From a virus, in UHGV virus genome UHGV-0120089: 14,833 bases of DNA, one strand, 5' to 3'. Under the pieces are notes generated by a model. That model saw only the letters and a program-made list of their open reading frames with translations. It had not been told where the DNA came from and did not search any database. Each line of letters opens with the position of its first letter. The stretch's first letter is position 1. This document shows positions 1 through 12,290 of this stretch, piece by piece. The position numbers and the translations under genes were made by a program.

Positions 1-8
1 GAAGTGCT

Positions 9-104
9 TCAATAATCGTTATCCACATCATCAGCCGCCGACCTGAATATCAGCCAGGCGGCGATCACAAACACCAATGCAACCCCACCAATTGCCAACC
101 ACAT
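9..104 (-). CDS. Possible 31-aa hydrophobic peptide (MWLAIGGVALVFVIAAWLIFRSAADDVDNDY), below the ORF-track size cutoff
   Basis: Hand translation of the minus strand: ATG at 104-102, TGA at 11-9, one predicted TM helix plus acidic tail, G-rich stretch just upstream of the ATG. No homolog recognised. Confidence 0.25.
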   Translation of the reverse strand: MWLAIGGVALVFVIAAWLIFRSAADDVDNDY

Positions 105-200
105 AGACACCCCCCGCTTCGACAATCTAAATCTCCTTGCTTCTCATGGTCTTTTCAATTCGTGCATTCGATCTTCTTAATCAAATTCACTGATCGATAT

Positions 201-220
201 TACTGTATATGCATACAGTA
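201..220. promoter_or_regulatory. LexA (SOS) box TACTGTATATGCATACAGTA overlapping the promoter of the 241-800 operon
   Basis: Perfect CTGT-N8-ACAG palindrome with near-consensus flanks, about 20 bp upstream of the RBS AGGAGGG (227-233) and the ATG at 241. Confidence 0.8.
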
Positions 221-240
221 ATCATCAGGAGGGACAAGCG

Positions 241-480
241 ATGCCCCGAGACTACGACATTCCATATGCTTTCACGCTAGCCATCACACCAAACGCCAGA
301 GGTGTGCAGGTCGTCGCCACATCAGTATTCCGCCGTGAACTACACAAGCTTAATCACGACTGGACTCTGCAGCGCTGCAATGAGTGGATAATTAGCAGGC
401 AGACGTTCTTCGCGGACATCACCGAAGGTGATTCAGTTGATGGTACTTACGCGCTACGCAACATGGGGAGGGTTCTCTAA
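241..480 (+). CDS. Hypothetical 79-aa protein, first gene of an SOS-box bicistron
   Basis: ORF with a strong RBS at 7 nt spacing; its stop overlaps the next start (TAATG at 478-482), implying translational coupling. No family recognised. Confidence 0.55.
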   Translation: MPRDYDIPYAFTLAITPNARGVQVVATSVFRRELHKLNHDWTLQRCNEWIISRQTFFADITEGDSVDGTYALRNMGRVL

Positions 481-800
481 TGGGATTTCCTTCACCGGCA
501 ACTGATTATGTTGAAGAACGCATTAACCTCAACCGCATATTCATACCCAATCCAGCGAACACCTTCATGATTGAGACATCGACCGGCTGCATTCTGGTTG
601 ACAGGGTGGCTAAGGTTTCGCCTGGCGATTTGGTTGCGTTCCAGATGGAAGGCAATCCCATGCTTGGAAAATGGTACCCGAAGCACCTGATGACGGATGA
701 CGGTTTGATAGAGGGTGAGCAACTGGAAGAGGTAATAGTGCTGGGTGCGGTGACGGTGGAAGTGCTGACGCTGGATGAGAAGTGGAGGCCGACTATATAG
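480..800 (+). CDS. UmuD'-like (HumD-like) protein, S24/LexA-fold C-terminal domain lacking the N-terminal cleavable arm
   Basis: N-terminus MGFPSPATDYVEERINLN matches, from memory, E. coli UmuD residues 25 onward (GFPSPAADYVEQRIDLN), i.e. it starts where processed UmuD' starts. Downstream VSPGDLVAF resembles ISDGDLLIV. The GDSM serine motif is not obvious (ETSTGC instead). No umuC-like gene follows. Confidence 0.6.
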   Translation: MGFPSPATDYVEERINLNRIFIPNPANTFMIETSTGCILVDRVAKVSPGDLVAFQMEGNPMLGKWYPKHLMTDDGLIEGEQLEEVIVLGAVTVEVLTLDEKWRPTI

Positions 801-1111
801 GGGATTACTCCCCATCAATCCAGTCCGCCCACCATTGCATCATTTCTCTGCGCTTAACGTGGCAGATGCCTCACTATCACACGGTGATGGTTCATTACTG
901 GTTTGCAGAATGGATAGAGAACTGAGGATAAAAGATATCCCAAAACTCCAAAATCTCATCTTTAGGATTTGCAGAAAGGGAGGCGTGAACAAATACCTGC
1001 GCATGAAAACGGAACTAGTCCAGATGTGATGTTTGTGGTGATCACATACATCATCAACGATGCTCGTTATGGTGAGTTTTATGACTGCCAAGTAATGTGA
1101 AAATTGCGATG

Positions 1112-1413: not shown

Positions 1414-2592
1414 ATGGCTATAAGCGACACAAAACTGCGTACTATTTATGGTAAACCATATTCGGGCCCACAAGAAGTGGCTGATGCTGATGGCCTCAGC
1501 GTACGAATTTCACCGAAGGGGGTCATCCAGTTCCAGTACCGCTATCGCTGGCATGGCAAGCCTAATCGACTTGGGCTTGGTCGATACCCATCCCTGTCTT
1601 TGAAGGATGCCAGACAGATCACTGCTGACTTGCGAAAGCTCTATTTCTCAGGAACGGATCCACGCACTTATTTTGAAGAGAAGGTGGAGAACTCCATGAC
1701 GGTCGCCCAGTGTCTCGACTACTGGTTCGACAACTACGTCTCTACAACTCTCAGAGAAAAGACCCAGGCACTTTACCGATCAACGGTTATGAAGCGCATG
1801 CATGACGCCTTTCCTAATCGTCCGGCATCTTCTATCACGGTTAAGCAATGGGTTGACCTGCTTACCGAAGAAGAAAGAGATAATCCACGCCGAGCAAGGC
1901 AGGTGCTAAGTCAACTAAGATCAGCAATAAGTTGGTGCATGCGGCGTCAGTTGATAGATAGTTGCGCAATTATGAGCATCCAACCAAGGGACTTCGGCTC
2001 CCGCGCTGAGGTAGGGGATCGGGTACTGTCGTATCACGAACTGGCTAAGATTTGGCTTGCTATTGAAAGAAGCCGTGCGTCTACGTCAAATAAGCTACTT
2101 CATCAGATGCTTATGCTGTGGGGGGCGAGGCTCTCAGAGCTTAGGCTGGCAACAAAGACAGAATTTGACCTGCTGGACAACGTATGGACCGTACCGAAAG
2201 AGCATAGCAAGATGGGCAATGTTATCCGCCGTCCAATCTTCGAACAAATTAAGCCTTTCCTCGAAAAGGCCATGACAACGTATAATGATGTTCTTTTCCC
2301 TGGAGAAGACATAAGCAAGCCGATCAGCATCGCTGCAGCCAACCGATTCGTAAATAGAATAAGGGGAGGGATGGATCTAGGTTACTGGCGAACACACGAT
2401 TTCAGAAGAACGCTTGTTACACGTCTGTCCGAGATGAATGTCGAGCCTCATGTTACTGAGCGAATGCTCGGTCATGAACTTGGCGGGATAATGTCAGTAT
2501 ACAATAAACACGACTGGATAGAGGCTCAGCGCAAAGTGTATGAGCTTCACGCTGATAAATTGTTCTGGCACATCAGGAGCATTTCTGATTAA
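1414..2592 (+). CDS. int: Tyrosine site-specific integrase, P4-type (N-terminal arm-binding domain plus catalytic domain)
   Basis: 392 aa. N-terminal GLSVRISPKGVIQFQYRYRWHGK is typical of the P4-integrase arm-binding (DUF4102-type) domain. C-terminus carries the catalytic signature: R in GARLSELR, HDFRRT (H-x-x-R), and LGHELGGIMSVYNKHDW (His and nucleophile Tyr). Confidence 0.93.
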   Translation: MAISDTKLRTIYGKPYSGPQEVADADGLSVRISPKGVIQFQYRYRWHGKPNRLGLGRYPSLSLKDARQITADLRKLYFSGTDPRTYFEEKVENSMTVAQCLDYWFDNYVSTTLREKTQALYRSTVMKRMHDAFPNRPASSITVKQWVDLLTEEERDNPRRARQVLSQLRSAISWCMRRQLIDSCAIMSIQPRDFGSRAEVGDRVLSYHELAKIWLAIERSRASTSNKLLHQMLMLWGARLSELRLATKTEFDLLDNVWTVPKEHSKMGNVIRRPIFEQIKPFLEKAMTTYNDVLFPGEDISKPISIAAANRFVNRIRGGMDLGYWRTHDFRRTLVTRLSEMNVEPHVTERMLGHELGGIMSVYNKHDWIEAQRKVYELHADKLFWHIRSISD

Positions 2593-5570: not shown

Positions 5571-5987
5571 TTATACCTCTGAATCAATATCAACCTGGTG
5601 GTGAGCAATGGTTTCAACCATGTACCGGATGTGTTCTGCCATGCGCTCCTGAAACTCAACATCGTCATCAAACGCACGGGTAATGGCTTTTTTGTTGGCC
5701 CCGCAGCGTTGCAAATGATCGATGCAGAGTGATTCAAACAGGTGCTGTGGAAGACCTTTTTCCATGTCGTCTGCCAGTTCTGCCTCTTTCTCTTCACGGG
5801 CGATCTGCTGGTAGTGACGCGCCCAGCTCTGAGCCTCAAGACGATCCTGAATGTAATAAGCGTTCATGGCTGAACTCCTGAAATAGCTGTGAAAATATCG
5901 CCCGCGAAATGCCGGGCTGATTAGGAAAACAGGAAAGGGGGTTAGTGAATGCTTTTGCTTGATCTCAGTTTCAGTATTAATATCCAT
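5571..5987 (-). CDS. gam: Lambda Gam (RecBCD inhibitor); 138-aa long form, with the short form starting at internal MNAYYIQ
   Basis: Near-identical to lambda Gam from memory ([61 protein letters not shown]...). Confidence 0.93.
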
Positions 5988-6085
5988 TTTTTATAAGCGT
6001 CGACGGCTTCACGAAACATCTTTTCATCGCCAATAAAAGTGGCGATAGTGAATTTAGTCTGGATAGCCATAAGTGTTTGATCCAT
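5942..6085 (-). CDS. kil: Lambda Kil (47 aa; FtsZ-targeting host-killing peptide)
   Basis: [47 protein letters not shown] matches lambda Kil from memory. It is the C-terminal 47 codons of the 89-aa track ORF and overlaps cIII as in lambda. Confidence 0.8.
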
Positions 6086-6218
6086 TTTTTGGGACTCCTG
6101 GCTGATTAAGTATGTCGATAAGGCGTTTCCATCCGTCACGTAATTTACGGGTGATTCGTTCAAGTAAAGATTCGGAAGGGCAGCCAGCAACAGGCCACCC
6201 TGCAATGGCATATTGCAT
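6054..6218 (-). CDS. cIII: Lambda CIII (54 aa; FtsH/HflB inhibitor protecting CII)
   Basis: Hand translation from ATG at 6218: [54 protein letters not shown], stop at 6054-6056; matches lambda CIII from memory. Below the ORF-track cutoff. Confidence 0.85.
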   Translation of the reverse strand: MQYAIAGWPVAGCPSESLLERITRKLRDGWKRLIDILNQPGVPKNGSNTYGYPD

Positions 6219-6290
6219 GGTGTGCTCCTTATTTATACATAACGAAAAACGCCTCGAGTGAAGCGTTATTGGTATGCGGTAACGCCGCGC

Positions 6291-6658
6291 TCAGGCGGCT
6301 TTGATAGTCATATCATCTGAATCAAATATTCCTGATGTATCGATATCGGTAATTCTTATTCCTTCGCTACCATCCATTGGAGGCCATCCTTCCTGACCAT
6401 TTCCATCATTCCAGTCGAACTCACACACAACACCATATGCATTTAAGTCGCTTGAAATTGCTATAAGCAGAGCATGTTGCGCCAGCATGATTAATACAGC
6501 ATTTAATACAGAGCCGTGTTTATTGAGTCGGTATTCAGAGTCTGACCAGAAATTATTAATCTGGTGAAGTTTTTCCTCTGTCATTACGTCATGGTCAATT
6601 TCAATTTCTATTGATGCTTTCCAGTCGTATCAATGATGTATTTTTTGATGTTTGACAT
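6291..6658 (-). pseudogene. ea10: ea10-like gene disrupted by a 1-nt frameshift near codon 11; the downstream 97-codon ORF (6291-6584) remains intact
   Basis: ATG at 6658 opens a 16-codon ORF (MSNIKKYIIDTTGKHQ*). The frame of the 97-aa ORF is open for 15 further codons upstream (YDWKASIEIEIDHDV) up to a TGA. Restoring one T at GATACGAC (about 6625-6632) joins them into 122 codons, the size I recall for lambda ea10. The total span is 368 nt, i.e. 369 minus 1. Confidence 0.6.
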
Positions 6659-7482: not shown

Positions 7483-7755
7483 TCACCTCGCTGTCAGTTG
7501 TTTTGATTTCCGGTAGCCTGCCGCGTAAATGGCTACGTTTGGCAGGCAAATACTTCCACTGCATTCATCTGCCTTCTTGCAGCAAAGGCTTCCTAGCGAT
7601 GCTGCTTTGTCTGCTCTGACGCAACCAGAGAGCTTTAGCGCAATTTTTCGCGCCAGTCGCTGTTCTTGCATTGCCTGCTCACGTTGAGCCTGTCTGCGTG
7701 CTCTGCGGCGATTTCTGGTGTTATCGTCAGCCAGATATGTAATGACTACTGCCAT
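7483..7755 (-). CDS. N: N-type transcription antiterminator, P22 gp24-like
   Basis: 90 aa with an N-terminal arginine-rich motif (NTRNRRRARRQAQREQ). The C-terminal end VAIYAAGYRKSKQLTAR resembles P22 N (GVALYAAGHRKSKQITAR, from memory). First gene downstream of pL/nutL. Confidence 0.85.
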   Translation of the reverse strand: MAVVITYLADDNTRNRRRARRQAQREQAMQEQRLARKIALKLSGCVRADKAASLGSLCCKKADECSGSICLPNVAIYAAGYRKSKQLTAR

Positions 7756-8122: not shown

Positions 8123-8491
8123 TTAGTCAGCGAAGGTTAAGACGAGAATTACCTTAATGATGTCTGCTACAACAGACACGGCCATAGATAAACCAAAGAC
8201 GATCCAAGCCACAGTGATGTCTTCACTACCATCGTATAGAGTTCCGTAATCACTGGTGTAAGGCGTAAATGTCGCGCCTTGATACAATAGGTATAAGCTT
8301 GATCCATAGAGGAAAAATGCAGATATCCCTTGTATTGCCATGATCACCAGAATCATGAAACGAGCTGATCTATGCGCCCAAGCCTGGCTTATTTTTTCTG
8401 ATAGAGATTTCGCAATAAAAGCATGCGCTAAGCAGTAAATTGTCGATATTGCCAACATCCCTAAAAAGCTTGCTATAGCGGTTCCAACCAT
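8123..8491 (-). CDS. Unknown 122-aa membrane protein with three predicted TM helices, co-transcribed downstream of cI (rexAB position)
   Basis: ATG at 8491 preceded by SD AAGGGG at 5 nt spacing, 17 nt after the cI stop. The track ORF begins at TTG 8512, an alternative start. Hydrophobic stretches VGTAIASFLGMLAISTIYCLAHAFIA, FMILVIMAIQGISAFFLYGSSLYLLY, ITVAWIVFGLSMAVSVVADIIKVILVLTF. No similarity to RexA/RexB recognised. Confidence 0.65.
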   Translation of the reverse strand: MVGTAIASFLGMLAISTIYCLAHAFIAKSLSEKISQAWAHRSARFMILVIMAIQGISAFFLYGSSLYLLYQGATFTPYTSDYGTLYDGSEDITVAWIVFGLSMAVSVVADIIKVILVLTFAD

Positions 8492-8508: not shown

Positions 8509-9225
8509 TCAAACCAGTCTGAGTTTTGTCTCAATTGCAACGCCTATAATCTTGCAGTTTCCATTGATTGGCACGAGAGGCCATGCAGGATTAAGTCCCT
8601 TGAGGTATTTATTTCCGCCGTCGATTATCAGCTTCTTGAATGTTGCTTCGTTAGAGTCAGAAAGTTTTGCTATGACCAAGCTGCCGTTGATCGCCTCCCT
8701 TCCGGTATCGAAAAGAACGAATGTTCCCTCTGGAATGCTTAACCCAACCGGTGACGTCATTGAATCACCTTCCACTTTAAGCCAGAACGCATTACCTTGA
8801 ATATGCGCGTCAGACTCAAGCCAAACATCTATGTCTTTAATGGTGTATGGTTCGCATGCTTCACACCACGAGCCAGCCTGGATACTGCTTAACACCGGAT
8901 ACCTCTTTCCTGCTCTGTATTCCCCTGCATACCTTACGTTGGCATCGCTCTTAAGGCTTTCTGCCTGTTCTGCAACCTTGGCAGCAATTGACTGGCTAAA
9001 ATCAGCAATTGAGACTTGCAACAATCGTGCAAAACCAGATGCAACCTCAACGTTTAGCGCATTTCTGCCATTAAGATAATGCCCTACCGCTCCTTGGGTG
9101 ATACCCAGTTCATCAGCGATTGAGTATTGGGTTATCCCCAATTCTTTCTTTTTTGACTCATACAAAGCCTTAAGCCGCTTAGCGTCTTCGAGCTGTTCTG
9201 TCGTCAGTGATTTTTTATTTTCCAT
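8509..9225 (-). CDS. cI: CI-type prophage repressor (HTH plus S24 autopeptidase domain)
   Basis: 238 aa. N-terminus LTTEQLEDAKRLKALYESKKKELGITQ parallels lambda CI ([27 protein letters not shown], from memory). Ala-Gly cleavage site (SIQAGSW), GDSM serine motif and catalytic Lys (TFKKL). Confidence 0.92.
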   Translation of the reverse strand: MENKKSLTTEQLEDAKRLKALYESKKKELGITQYSIADELGITQGAVGHYLNGRNALNVEVASGFARLLQVSIADFSQSIAAKVAEQAESLKSDANVRYAGEYRAGKRYPVLSSIQAGSWCEACEPYTIKDIDVWLESDAHIQGNAFWLKVEGDSMTSPVGLSIPEGTFVLFDTGREAINGSLVIAKLSDSNEATFKKLIIDGGNKYLKGLNPAWPLVPINGNCKIIGVAIETKLRLV

Positions 9226-9331: not shown

Positions 9332-9526
9332 ATGATTCGAATGACACTTGCCGATTACGCCAAAATCCATGGACAGGCTAAAGCAGCCAGTGACTTTGGT
9401 GTAATCCAGTGCGCTATCAGCAAGGCCATTCTGGCAGGCCGTAACATTATGGTTACGGTAAAGCCTGATGGCAGTGTGATTGGAGAGGAGGTTCGTCCTT
9501 TCCCAAGCAACAAGAAAAACAAATAG
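9332..9526 (+). CDS. cro: Cro repressor
   Basis: From ATG 9332 (SD GGAGAG 5 nt upstream): [64 protein letters not shown], parallel to lambda Cro ([59 protein letters not shown], from memory). Confidence 0.9.
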
Positions 9527-9634: not shown

Positions 9635-9841
9635 ATGCAACTTACAAGTACTCGCAAGAAAGCGAATGCAATTACAAGCAACATCCTAAATCGAATTGCT
9701 GTACGTGGTCAGCGAAAGGTTGCTGATGCATTAGGGATCAATGAATCGCAAATTTCGCGATGGAAAGACAGCTTTATCCCAAAGATGGCCATGCTTCTGG
9801 CTGTGCTGGAGTGGGGTGTTGAAGACGAGGAATTAGCGTAG
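9635..9841 (+). CDS. cII: CII-like lysogeny activator, ending at an in-frame TAG after 68 codons (apparent truncation; 23 further CII-like codons follow in frame)
   Basis: From ATG 9635: ...ADALGINESQISRWKDSFIPKMAMLLAVLEWGVEDEELA*, parallel to lambda CII (AEAVGVDKSQISRWKRDWIPKFSMLLAVLEWGVVDDDMA). After TAG 9839-9841 the frame continues LAKKVAMVLTKEKPQDCGNSFEA* to 9913, resembling the lambda CII tail LARQVAAILTNKKRP. Confidence 0.7.
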   Translation: MQLTSTRKKANAITSNILNRIAVRGQRKVADALGINESQISRWKDSFIPKMAMLLAVLEWGVEDEELA

Positions 9842-9947
9842 CTGGCAAAGAAAGTAGCCATGGTGCTGACAAAAGAAAAGCCTCAAGACTGCGGCAACAG
9901 TTTTGAGGCCTGATGTAGAAAGACTGGATCAATCCACAGGAGTAATT

Positions 9948-10109
9948 ATGACAAAACGTCGTAAGAAATACCAGGAAAAAGAAGAGATTCGACACCCTGA
10001 TTCACCTGAGGGATTAGTGGTAGCCGCAGCAAATAACAGGGCGTTCGCAGAGCGCCTTGTTGGTGTTCACAGACTAGCCAAAGCAGGAGTGAAACATGGG
10101 CGTCGTTAA
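9948..10109 (+). CDS. Hypothetical 53-aa basic protein between cII and the initiator gene
   Basis: ATG at 9948 with SD AGGAG 7 nt upstream; lysine/arginine-rich N-terminus. No family recognised. Its 3' end overlaps the O-like start. Confidence 0.4.
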   Translation: MTKRRKKYQEKEEIRHPDSPEGLVVAAANNRAFAERLVGVHRLAKAGVKHGRR

Positions 10110-10917
10110 GTTAGCTGATTACAGGCCTCAACTGGAGGTCGTGGAGCATCGCGTGGCAGATACCGAAGATGGTTTCATGCGCGTTGCTAACGAGATTACC
10201 GACAGTCTGCTGATGGCTGATTTAACCGTCCGGCAGCTGAAGGTGATGCTCGCTATCATGCGCAAGACATACGGATTCAATAAGCCGATGGATCGACTCA
10301 CAAACACGCAGATAGCAGCCATGACAGGTATTCATCACACTCATGTTTGCGCTGCCAAGCGCCAGCTTATTGAGCGTAAATTCCTCATTGCTGATGGCGT
10401 GAAAATCGGAGTGAACAAGGTGGTTTCTCAGTGGATTAGCCAGGACAGCTTAACATTAGCTAAAACAGCTAATAAAACATTAGCCAAGTCGGCTAATGGG
10501 TATAAGCCAAGTCAGCTAAACACAAAAGACAATATACAAAAGACAATAAATACAAATACCCCCTTACCCCCTAACGGGGGCGGCGATGGGCAGGTTAAAC
10601 CTGAACGTCGCAAGGCAGAACGAATCGACTACGAATCCTTCCTGAACGCCTACAACACCGAAGTCGGTGACAGACTTCCACATGCTGTTGCAGTCAACGA
10701 GAAACGCAAACGCCGCCTGAAGAAAATCATCCCGCAACTGAAAACGCCAAACGTGGACGGTTTCAGAGCGTATGTCAGGGCGTTTGTGCATCAGGCCAAG
10801 CCGTTTTACTTCGGAGACAACGACACGGGCTGGACGGCCGATTTTGATTACCTGCTGAGGGAAGACTCGTTAACGGGAGTTCGGGAAGGGAAGTTTGCAG
10901 ACAGGGGGATTGCATGA
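10096..10917 (+). CDS. O: Replication initiator, lambda O-like (N-terminal iteron-binding domain) with internal ori
   Basis: 273 aa. [34 protein letters not shown] parallels lambda O (ADLTKRQFKVLLAILRKTYGWNKPMDRITDSQLS, from memory). Iterons and an AT-rich tract lie in the middle of the gene. Confidence 0.9.
10447..10560. repeat. Replication origin: three to four iterons (TTAGC(T/C)-N5-(A/G)GCTAA type, about 24-bp period) followed by an A/T-rich tract
   Basis: TTAGCTAAAACAGCTAA (10456-10472), TTAGCCAAGTCGGCTAA (10480-10496), TAAGCCAAGTCAGCTAA (10503-10519), then AAAAGACAATATACAAAAGACAATAAATACAAATA (10523-10558). Confidence 0.65.
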
Positions 10918-12290
10918 GACAGGATATCGAAGCGAGCGTTATCGGTGGCCTGCTGATTGGTGGATTAACGCCAACCGCCAGTGACGTTCTGGCAACGCTG
11001 GAGCCGGAAGCGTTTTCAATTCCGCTCTACCGGAAAGCCTTCGAGGTTATCCGCAAGCAGGCGCGAAACAGAAACCTAATCGACGCGCTGATGGTTGCCG
11101 AGGAGTGCGGAGAGGAGCATTTCACGTCAATCCTGATGACCAGCAAAAACTGCCCGAGTGCCGCAAACCTGAAGGGATATGCCGGAATGGTCGCGGATAA
11201 CTATCACCGCCGTCTGGTGCTGGAAATCATGGATGAAATGCGTGAACCAATCCAAAGCGGAACCATCGACGCATCGAGTCAGGCGATGGATGAACTTGTA
11301 AAGCGTCTTTCAGCCATCAGAAAGCCCCGTGACGAGGTTAAACCTGTACGGTTAGGGGAAATCATCACTGACTACACTGACACGCTTGACAGGCGTCTGA
11401 GGAACGGAGAAGAGTCAGATACCCTGAAGACCGGAATCGAAGAACTTGACGCCATCACCGGAGGGATGAACGCGGAAGACCTGGTGATTATCGCCGCTCG
11501 TCCTGGTATGGGGAAAACCGAACTGGCGCTGAAGATTGCCGAAGGCGTTGCAAGCCGCGTTATTCCTGGTTCTGACGTTCGGCGCGGAGTATTGATTTTC
11601 TCGATGGAAATGAGCGCATTGCAGATTGCAGAGCGAAGCATTGCCAACGCCGGGAGGATGTCGGTTAGCGTGCTGCGAAATCCTGCTTCGATGGATGACG
11701 AAGGCTGGGCGCGCGTTGCTAACGGCATGAGTCAGCTTGCAGATTTGGATGTATGGGTAGTCGATGCCTCGCGGTTATCGGTCGAAGAAATACGCTCAAT
11801 CGCAGAACGGCACAAACAGGAAAATCCAAACCTGTCACTCATCATGGTGGATTATCTTGGCCTGATTGAGAAGCCGAAAGCAGATCGCAACGACCTCGCA
11901 ATTGCTCACATCTCCGGAAGCCTGAAGGCGATGGCGAAAGACCTGAAAACGCCAGTTATCTCCCTAAGTCAGCTTTCGCGCGATGTTGAGAAGCGACCAA
12001 ACAAACGCCCGACAAACGCAGATTTGCGTGATTCAGGAAGCATTGAACAGGACGCAGACTCAATCATCATGCTCTATCGGGAAGCGGTATATGACGAGAA
12101 CAGTAGCGCCGCGCCATTTGCTGAAATCATTGTGACGAAAAACCGTTTTGGCTCGCTTGGTACGGTTTACCAGCGGTTCTGCAACGGACACTTTGTTGCA
12201 TGTGACCAGGATGAAGCCAGACAGATTTGCACAGCATCAAATGCACCTGCTGCGCGTGGCAGACGATATGCACAAGGGGCTGACGTATGA
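10914..12290 (+). CDS. Replicative DNA helicase, DnaB family (phage-encoded, P22 gene 12-like)
   Basis: 458 aa. Walker [10 protein letters not shown], Walker [10 protein letters not shown], and the N-terminal DnaB-like domain. Start overlaps the O stop (ATGA). Confidence 0.92.

What the first reader, a model, noticed from the sequence alone, without database searches (positions are those of the whole stretch)
9635..9913. cII reading frame interrupted by an in-frame TAG; the remaining CII tail is still encoded
The CII homolog stops after 68 codons (...EWGVEDEELA-TAG), yet the next 23 in-frame codons (LAKKVAMVLTKEK...) still resemble the C-terminal part of CII, and the read-through length would be 92 aa, a normal CII/C1 size. 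This looks like a recent nonsense (amber) mutation rather than a naturally short gene. A truncated CII would lack part of the oligomerisation helix and the C-terminal FtsH degradation tag, so the lysis-lysogeny decision of this phage would be altered; alternatively the host may carry an amber suppressor.
Basis: partly seen in the sequence, partly recalled or inferred. Interest (0 to 1): 0.55.

Follow-up and report, generated by a model that had tools for sequence, protein, structure and literature searches.

The report
Nonsense-mutated phage cII lysogeny gene
A single G-to-T change has put a stop codon two-thirds of the way into the cII lysogeny-activator gene of a lambda-like E. coli phage, almost certainly killing the protein; this is a classical and ordinary kind of phage mutation.

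Summary
The cII gene (9635-9841, +) stops at TAG after 68 codons, and the same frame runs 23 more codons to TGA at 9911-9913. Over all 279 bases it is identical to intact 92-codon alleles (WP_021544312.1) except G->T at window 9839, which turns GAG (Glu69) into TAG. In 80 related viral contigs codon 69 is always a sense codon (Lys, Glu or Arg); 79 encode 92 aa. No complete E. coli genome or deposited phage has this T. The protein aligns without gaps to lambda CII. Published lambda deletions show CII1-81 works, CII1-80 does not, and CII1-77 and CII1-67 are null. The product should therefore be an inactive activator. The phage could no longer establish lysogeny efficiently, while prophage maintenance and lytic growth would be unaffected. 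cIII, cI, cro, N, the pRE CII box and an OOP-like antisense terminator are intact, so the mutation looks recent. The same TAG is present in a non-identical assembly (L008), which argues against a read error. An independent G->T at the same base (GAA->TAA) occurs in an unrelated phage (L005). This is a curiosity that I could not separate from sampling bias. No suppressor tRNA lies in the window, and the host genome is not available. Verdict: ordinary, low interest.

The parts
9635..9841 (+). Truncated cII (P22 C1 / lambda CII family) reading frame: 68 codons plus TAG
   Evidence: Pfam PF05269 E = 4e-33, covering model positions 1-68 of 91. It lies between cro and the O-like replication gene (gene table).
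9839..9841 (+). Premature amber codon. The T at 9839 replaces the G of GAG (Glu69) in otherwise identical intact alleles.
   Evidence: Alignment A1. It is the single difference from L001, L035 and L037. No 28-mer spanning this T occurs in 5,426 complete E. coli genomes or 50,697 phage records.
9842..9913 (+). Orphaned 3' part of cII: 23 codons (LAKKVAMVLTKEKPQDCGNSFEA) plus the original TGA
   Evidence: Identical at nucleotide level to intact alleles; 14 of 80 IMG/VR loci are identical over columns 208-279. It aligns to lambda CII residues 70-83.
9644..9657 (-). CII recognition box TTGCGAGTACTTGT at the -35 region of pRE, inside the 5' end of cII; intact
   Evidence: Pattern match. It falls within the region annotated in phage HK620 as the cII-protein binding site and pRE, and the window is identical to HK620 there.
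9868..9911 (-). OOP/tO-like antisense hairpin plus U-tract overlapping the last ~45 nt of the cII frame; not touched by the mutation
   Evidence: RNA fold -26.4 kcal/mol, z = -4.0, 0 of 200 shuffles as stable, followed by UUUUCUUUUGU. The assignment as an OOP terminator is by analogy with lambda, where 52 nt of oop overlap cII (PMC5869508). 'attatg', the lambda pO -10 equivalent, lies at 9945-9950.
9332..9526 (+). cro, intact (context)
   Evidence: Gene table with PF09048; the same protein is annotated in relatives.
8509..9225 (-). cI-type repressor (HTH_3 + Peptidase_S24), intact (context: prophage maintenance does not depend on cII)
6054..6218 (-). cIII (54 aa), intact, with its thermoregulator RNA element at 6173-6231
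   Evidence: Rfam RF01804, 88.5 bits. The translation is identical to the CIII of L007.

Best explanation
This is a recent loss-of-function allele of the lysogeny-establishment activator gene cII in a lambdoid E. coli phage or prophage sampled in a gut metagenome. A single G-to-T transversion at window 9839 changed codon 69 from GAG (Glu) to TAG. Translation therefore ends after residue 68. The product keeps the N-terminal DNA-binding (helix-turn-helix) part. It loses the C-terminal helix that lambda CII needs to form its active tetramer, and it loses the C-terminal tail that marks lambda CII for FtsH degradation. By analogy with lambda, such a product cannot activate pRE (and pI or paQ where present). 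After infection or induction the phage would therefore grow lytically and lysogenise only rarely, the clear-plaque phenotype. A resident prophage is unaffected, because CII is not needed once the repressor is made from pRM. Shown here: the mutation, its uniqueness, the intact state of relatives, and intact neighbouring lysogeny genes and sites. Inferred: loss of activity, from lambda deletion data transferred by gapless alignment, and the phenotype.
For: The window gene differs by one base from intact alleles. Codon 69 is a sense codon in 80 of 80 IMG/VR relatives and 79 of 80 encode 92 aa. A stop at codon 69 is absent from complete E. coli genomes, INPHARED phages, IMG/VR, JGI metagenomes and GTDB representative genomes. 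The repaired product covers the full Pfam CII model, while the truncated one covers only 1-68 of 91. The repaired protein aligns without gaps to lambda CII 5-83, PDB 1XWR and 1ZS4. Lambda CII1-81 is functional and CII1-80 is not; CII1-77, 1-67, 1-57 and 1-47 fail to complement and lose toxicity; the C-terminal 16 residues are the FtsH signal (PMC5869508). CII is a tetramer and is dispensable once lysogeny is established (PMC9986795, PMC3053222). The same TAG appears in L008, which differs from the window by 9 SNPs and 1 indel over 9 kb, and in L010. cIII, cI, cro, N, the pRE box and the OOP-like terminator are intact.
Against: No experiment has been done on this protein, and the activity loss is transferred from lambda, a homologue whose alignment leaves many positions different. 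The contig has low coverage (name says cov 4.1). L006, L008 and L010 may be different assemblies of the same or related samples, so independent confirmation of the base call is not certain. The host genome is unknown, so suppression cannot be excluded. Low-level natural read-through of UAG would yield some full-length protein, and position 69 tolerates Glu, Lys and Arg.
Confidence: 0.85

Rival explanations
1. Sequencing or assembly error: the real phage has GAG at codon 69 and an intact cII.
For: The contig is a low-coverage metagenome assembly (NODE_3968, cov 4.1). No complete genome or deposited phage has the T. The L009 stop at the same codon sits near a contig end together with two further A->T changes, which shows that such artefacts may occur in this kind of data.
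Against: The T lies mid-contig. The same T is present in L010 (a different assembler naming style, identical sequence) and in L008, which is not identical to the window (9 SNPs and 1 indel). Several reads would all have to carry the same error.
Confidence: 0.07
2. The amber codon is read through, by a host amber suppressor tRNA or by natural leakiness of UAG followed by C, so that functional 92-aa CII is still made.
For: The downstream frame is fully intact. Position 69 is tolerant: Glu, Lys and Arg occur in relatives and Arg in lambda.
Against: There is no tRNA gene in the window. To my knowledge suppressor alleles are rare in natural E. coli. The independent case in L005 is TAA, which an amber suppressor does not read. 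No relative conserves a stop here, so this is not programmed recoding. To my knowledge CII acts as a tetramer with a threshold response, so a small read-through fraction should not restore function.
Confidence: 0.04
3. Codon 69 is a recurrent target. Either a mutational hotspot or selection for a specific CII(1-68) fragment explains why the same base is hit in independent phages.
For: G205T arose separately on two divergent alleles in different phage backgrounds: the window lineage (GAG->TAG) and L005 (GAA->TAA). Each is one base from its own intact allele, and the alleles differ at flanking columns 198, 201, 207 and 213. L009 shows a possible third event, AAG->TAG.
Against: There is ascertainment bias, because the look-up asked for exactly the 68-aa prefix, so only stops at codon 69 could be found. 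Thirteen of the 20 prefix lengths tested are also on record; most are contig-end partials, and one 65-aa entry is not flagged partial. There were zero stops at codon 69 among about 377 IMG/VR relatives and in four other collections. The two events share no sequence context that would suggest a templated mechanism. cII is not transcribed in a repressed prophage, so a fragment would have little chance to act. Lambda CII1-67 has no detectable activity. Loss of cII is expected to be neutral in a resident prophage, so with very deep sampling repeated hits per site are expected.
Confidence: 0.04

Closest known systems
Bacteriophage lambda CII (PDB 1XWR, 1ZPQ, 1ZS4; Pfam PF05269)
   Same: It is a homologue: gapless alignment over residues 5-83, E = 5e-23. 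It has the same gene position between cro and the replication genes, a TTGC-N6-TTGY box at pRE inside the 5' end of the gene, an antisense OOP-like terminator at the 3' end, and cIII with its thermoregulator elsewhere in the early region.
   Different: The repaired protein is 92 aa where lambda CII is 97 aa, with a different C-terminal tail. Here the frame is cut at codon 69, so the product corresponds to the inactive lambda CII1-67/1-77 deletion class.
P22 C1 / HK620 cII-type alleles of lambdoid E. coli and Salmonella phages (e.g. WP_021544312.1; HK620 AAK28870.1)
   Same: The first 197 nt are identical to HK620 cII, and all 279 nt bar one base are identical to WP_021544312.1-type alleles in E. 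coli prophages and Stx2c phages.
   Different: Those alleles are intact at 92 codons; the window carries TAG at codon 69.
Classical cII- clear-plaque mutants of lambda (e.g. cII68, cII2002) and engineered C-terminal deletions
   Same: The expected phenotype class is the same: no activation of pRE, a strongly reduced lysogenisation frequency, and normal lytic growth (PMC5869508, PMC3053222).
   Different: Those are laboratory mutants of lambda. This is a natural allele in a gut metagenome phage, and its phenotype is untested.

Membership tests
Lambda CII / P22 C1 family (Pfam PF05269 Phage_CII) | Significant match to the family profile | tested here: met
   68-aa product: E = 4e-33, 113.9 bits against a cut-off of 21.3. 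Repaired product: E = 7e-45. Lambda CII structures hit at E = 5e-23.
Lambda CII / P22 C1 family (Pfam PF05269 Phage_CII) | Full-length product including the C-terminal helix region (profile positions 69-91) | tested here: not met
   The product as encoded covers only profile positions 1-68 of 91. Positions 69-91 are encoded in frame, but after the TAG. It is therefore a disrupted member, a pseudogene allele, of the family.
Lambda CII / P22 C1 family (Pfam PF05269 Phage_CII) | Position immediately downstream of cro/nutR/tR1 and upstream of the replication genes, with the CII box of pRE in the 5' end of the gene | tested here: met
   The gene order is cI - cro - cII - small ORF - O - dnaB-like. 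TTGCGAGTACTTGT lies at 9644-9657(-), identical to the annotated HK620 site.
Lambda CII / P22 C1 family (Pfam PF05269 Phage_CII) | Activates pRE, pI and paQ as a tetramer; degraded by FtsH through its C-terminal tail | not testable with these tools
   This needs reporter, lysogenisation and oligomerisation assays. The inference from lambda deletions (PMC5869508) is that residues 1-68 are inactive.
Recent nonsense pseudogene | One-base difference from an intact allele, a sense codon in relatives, and no decay downstream | tested here: met
   G205T is the only difference. 80 of 80 relatives have a sense codon. The downstream 72 nt are identical to intact alleles.
Programmed stop-codon read-through / recoding | In-frame stop conserved among relatives | tested here: not met
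   There are no stops at codon 69 in 80 IMG/VR loci. The degenerate stop pattern is absent from IMG/VR, JGI metagenomes and GTDB representatives, and no 28-mer spanning the window's T occurs in complete E. coli genomes or INPHARED phages.
Amber-suppressed phage gene (suppressor-dependent) | A suppressor tRNA (CUA anticodon) in the phage or host | tested here: inconclusive
   ARAGORN finds no tRNA in the 14.8-kb window. The rest of the phage and the host genome are not available.

The most novel reading that the evidence does not exclude
The same base (column 205 of cII) has been hit by G->T in at least two unrelated phage backgrounds, and possibly by A->T in a third. The most novel reading not excluded is that codon 69 is a genuine mutational hotspot, or that a CII(1-68) fragment is selected, for example as a way for prophages to switch off re-lysogenisation while leaving the overlapping pRE and OOP elements untouched.
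Probability: 0.04. Interest if true: 0.4.

Novelty: already known. Interest (0 to 1): 0.13.

Why it matters
It matters little beyond this phage. It is a natural example of the classical cII-null (clear-plaque) class, and it shows a prophage or phage lineage that has just lost the ability to choose lysogeny. If this phage is inducible, it would behave as an obligately lytic derivative on sensitive hosts. There is a practical lesson for annotation. Most short CII proteins in large sequence collections are contig-end fragments created where alleles diverge, not true truncations, so DNA-level checks are needed before calling pseudogenes.

Tried and rejected
1. I looked for the TAG allele elsewhere. 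There were no hits with a 41-mer centred on the T in complete E. coli genomes or INPHARED phages. There were none with a degenerate codon-69 stop pattern in IMG/VR, JGI metagenomes or GTDB representatives.

2. I tried to test the hotspot idea by looking up other truncation lengths. Thirteen of 20 prefixes exist, but most named ones are flagged 'partial' (contig ends). True stops at other codons could therefore not be counted, and the test is inconclusive.

3. Three of the eight contigs carrying the '68-aa protein' (L007, L011, L012) turned out to be contig ends of the common Lys69 allele. Complete genomes have that allele intact. I rejected them as disruptions.

4. I suspected a cIII-kil fusion, because gene callers report an 89-aa 'Kil' ORF starting near the cIII thermoregulator. 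I rejected this: cIII (54 aa) and kil are both intact in overlapping frames.

6. The primary lambda CII structure and proteolysis papers (PMC1183575, PMC137528) are not held. I used PMC5869508, PMC9986795 and PMC3053222 instead.

7. The simple terminator scan found nothing at the cII 3' end because it only accepts loops of 3-8 nt. Direct folding found the hairpin.

8. The count of CII-box patterns in the window (2) is not above chance. Only the box that coincides with the HK620 annotation is claimed.

Full report
**What is in the sequence.** The window is a 14,833-bp metagenome contig (ENA ERZ1309804, NODE_3968, cov 4.1). It carries the early region of a lambdoid E. coli phage:
- int, 1414-2592 (+)
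- exo, bet, gam and kil
- cIII, 6054-6218 (-)
- N, 7483-7755 (-)
- cI, 8509-9225 (-)
- cro, 9332-9526 (+)
- cII
- a small ORF, 9948-10109
- an O-like replication gene, 10096-10917
- a DnaB-like helicase gene, 10914-12290
- nin-region genes

The cII frame starts at ATG 9635, runs 68 codons to TAG at 9839-9841, and continues in frame for 23 codons to TGA at 9911-9913.

**Is it a mutation or a naturally short gene?** It is a mutation.
- The 426 bases around the gene find no 100% match in 5,426 complete E. coli genomes or 50,697 phage records. The best hits differ by one base.
- Alignment with four relatives shows the gene is identical over all 279 bases to the allele encoding WP_021544312.1, except G->T at gene position 205 (window 9839), GAG -> TAG.
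- I took an unbiased sample of 80 IMG/VR contigs chosen only for matching the first 68 codons. Of these, 79 encode a 92-aa protein, one has a 1-nt deletion near codon 83 (L086), and none has a premature stop.
- In that sample codon 69 is AAG (31), GAG (26), GAA (22) or AGA (1).
- A 41-mer centred on the T finds nothing in complete E. coli genomes or deposited phages.
- A degenerate pattern for any TAA or TAG at codon 69 finds nothing in IMG/VR, JGI metagenomes or GTDB representative genomes.
- Pfam's CII model is matched at positions 1-68 of 91 by the encoded product and 1-91 of 91 by the repaired one.

Neither is met.

**Is the base call real?** The exact 68-aa product is on record on eight contigs.
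- L010 is identical to the window over 4.6 kb.
- L008 is 99.89% identical over 9 kb, with 9 SNPs and 1 indel clustered at window 6087-6630, and carries the same TAG.
- A mid-contig base shared by non-identical assemblies is unlikely to be a read error.
- I cannot show that these assemblies come from independent samples, so I leave about 7% for an artefact.

**What the truncation does.**
- The repaired protein aligns without gaps to lambda CII residues 5-83 (PDB 1XWR and 1ZS4, E about 5e-23). Glu69 therefore corresponds to lambda Arg69.
- Lambda CII is a tetrameric activator of pRE, pI and paQ, and it is no longer required once lysogeny is established (PMC9986795, PMC3053222).
- Published C-terminal deletions of lambda CII give CII1-92 and CII1-87 as active, CII1-81 as functional and CII1-80 as non-functional.
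- CII1-77, 1-67, 1-57 and 1-47 neither complement cII- phages nor retain toxicity or plasmid-loss activity. The last 16 residues are the FtsH degradation signal (PMC5869508).
- A 1-68 product is thus expected to be null. This step is inferred by homology and is not shown for this protein.
- The attribution of the missing segment to the tetramerisation helix (alpha4) rests on the titles of Datta et al. 2005 and Parua et al. 2010 seen, and on my recollection of those papers.

**Surroundings.** Everything else in the lysogeny circuit looks intact.
- cIII is identical to that of relatives, and its thermoregulator RNA is found by Rfam at 88.5 bits.
- cI, cro and N are intact.
- The CII box of pRE, TTGCGAGTACTTGT at 9644-9657 (-), is identical to the site annotated in HK620.
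- On the minus strand, 9868-9911 folds into a strong hairpin followed by UUUUCUUUUGU (z = -4.0).
- 'attatg', which matches the lambda pO -10, lies at 9945-9950. This is the expected OOP/tO arrangement (52 nt of oop overlap cII in lambda; PMC5869508).
- The TAG lies about 27 nt beyond the 3' end of this element and does not affect it.
- The complete nucleotide identity of the post-stop codons with intact alleles, together with the intact partners, indicates a recent event.

**The suppressor alternative.** ARAGORN finds no tRNA in the window. The rest of the phage and the host are not available, so this alternative is untested. It is unlikely on general grounds.

**Recurrence at the same base.** Among the eight contigs, L005 comes from a different phage. 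It has a lambda-like cI with rexAB, a different nutR region and an HK620-type cII 3' end. It carries GAA->TAA at the same base, and that is its only difference from its nearest intact alleles. Flanking allele-specific differences at columns 198, 201, 207 and 213 rule out transfer by recombination, so this is an independent event.

L009 has AAG->TAG on the Lys69 allele. It also has two further A->T changes 38 and 40 nt downstream, in the last 90 nt of the contig, so it may be an artefact. L007, L011 and L012 are contigs that end one base into codon 69. Complete genomes have that allele intact.

I do not read the recurrence as a hotspot, for these reasons:
- The look-up could only find stops at codon 69.
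- Thirteen of the 20 prefix lengths tested are also on record. Most are partials whose ends often coincide with allele-variable columns such as 150 and 177, and one 65-aa entry is not flagged partial.
- Loss of cII should be neutral in a resident prophage, and the collection is extremely deep.
- The DNA of the other truncations could not be retrieved, so the question stays formally open at low probability.

**Verdict.** This is a real, recent nonsense mutation in a well-known gene, with a well-understood expected consequence: a cII-null phage with clear plaques that cannot establish lysogeny efficiently. It is ordinary and already known in kind, and of low interest.

Noticed in passing
L005:7928-8134 (Logan ERR1822512): An unrelated lambdoid phage (lambda-like cI with rexA/rexB, an HK620-type cII 3' end) has an independent G->T at the same base of cII, GAA->TAA at codon 69. 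This is its only difference from the intact alleles L078, L084 and L085.
   Followed up: partly
L009:5027-5293: A third stop at codon 69 (AAG->TAG on the Lys69 allele) is accompanied by two more A->T changes (gene columns 243 and 245) within the last 90 nt of a metagenome contig. It is possibly an error-rich contig end and not a real allele.
   Followed up: partly
L007:10001-10205, L011:2724-2928, L012:1045-1249: Three contigs from different assemblies end exactly one base into codon 69 of cII. Other 'partial' CII entries (49 aa, 58 aa) end just before allele-variable columns 150 and 177. Short CII proteins in large databases are therefore mostly assembly forks at allele-divergence points, not truncations.
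   Followed up: partly
L086:1501-1974 (IMG/VR UViG_2859810971_000008): A 1-nt deletion in a C-run near codon 83 of cII (GCCCCG -> GCCCG) fuses CII to the downstream small ORF, giving a 157-aa product. It is the only defective cII among the 80 sampled viral contigs.
   Followed up: no
window 9868-9950 (-): An OOP-like antisense RNA module: a hairpin plus U-tract at 9868-9911 (z = -4.0) and 'attatg' (the lambda pO -10 equivalent) at 9945-9950, overlapping the start of the small ORF 9948-10109. The simple terminator scan missed it because of its internal structure and long loop.
   Followed up: partly
window 9668-9681 (-): A second, perfect TTGC-N6-TTGC (TTGCTTGTAATTGC) lies 24 nt inside cII from the annotated pRE box. 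The count of such patterns in the window is not above chance, so its significance is unknown.
   Followed up: no
window 9832-9913 versus relatives (gene columns 198-279): cII is mosaic. Gene columns 1-197 vary at only a few, mostly synonymous positions among 34 distinct alleles. From about column 198 onward the alleles fall into two main C-terminal types: ...AMVLTKEKPQDC(G/C)NSFEA and ...ARMLTKEKAPKNGEFFEA.
   Followed up: partly
window 5942-6231 (-): Gene callers report an 89-aa 'Kil' ORF (5942-6211) that overlaps the intact 54-aa cIII (6054-6218) in another frame. The Rfam Lambda_thermo element (6173-6231) marks the true cIII start. This is an annotation trap, not a fusion.
   Followed up: yes
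window 8123-8491 (-): A 122-aa strongly hydrophobic ORF lies immediately downstream of cI, in the position occupied by rexAB in lambda. It has no Pfam match and is a candidate lysogen-expressed membrane protein or moron.
   Followed up: no
window 1-812: The DNA to the left of the integrase region (ORFs 241-480 and 480-800, no Pfam hits) matches only one of 5,426 complete E. coli genomes (NZ_OZ501607.1, 96.6%). I did not determine whether it is phage or chromosomal flank.
   Followed up: partly
L005:9269-11734: The DnaB-like helicase gene in this relative encodes 821 aa, against 458 aa in the window. This suggests an insertion such as an intein or a fused domain.
   Followed up: no
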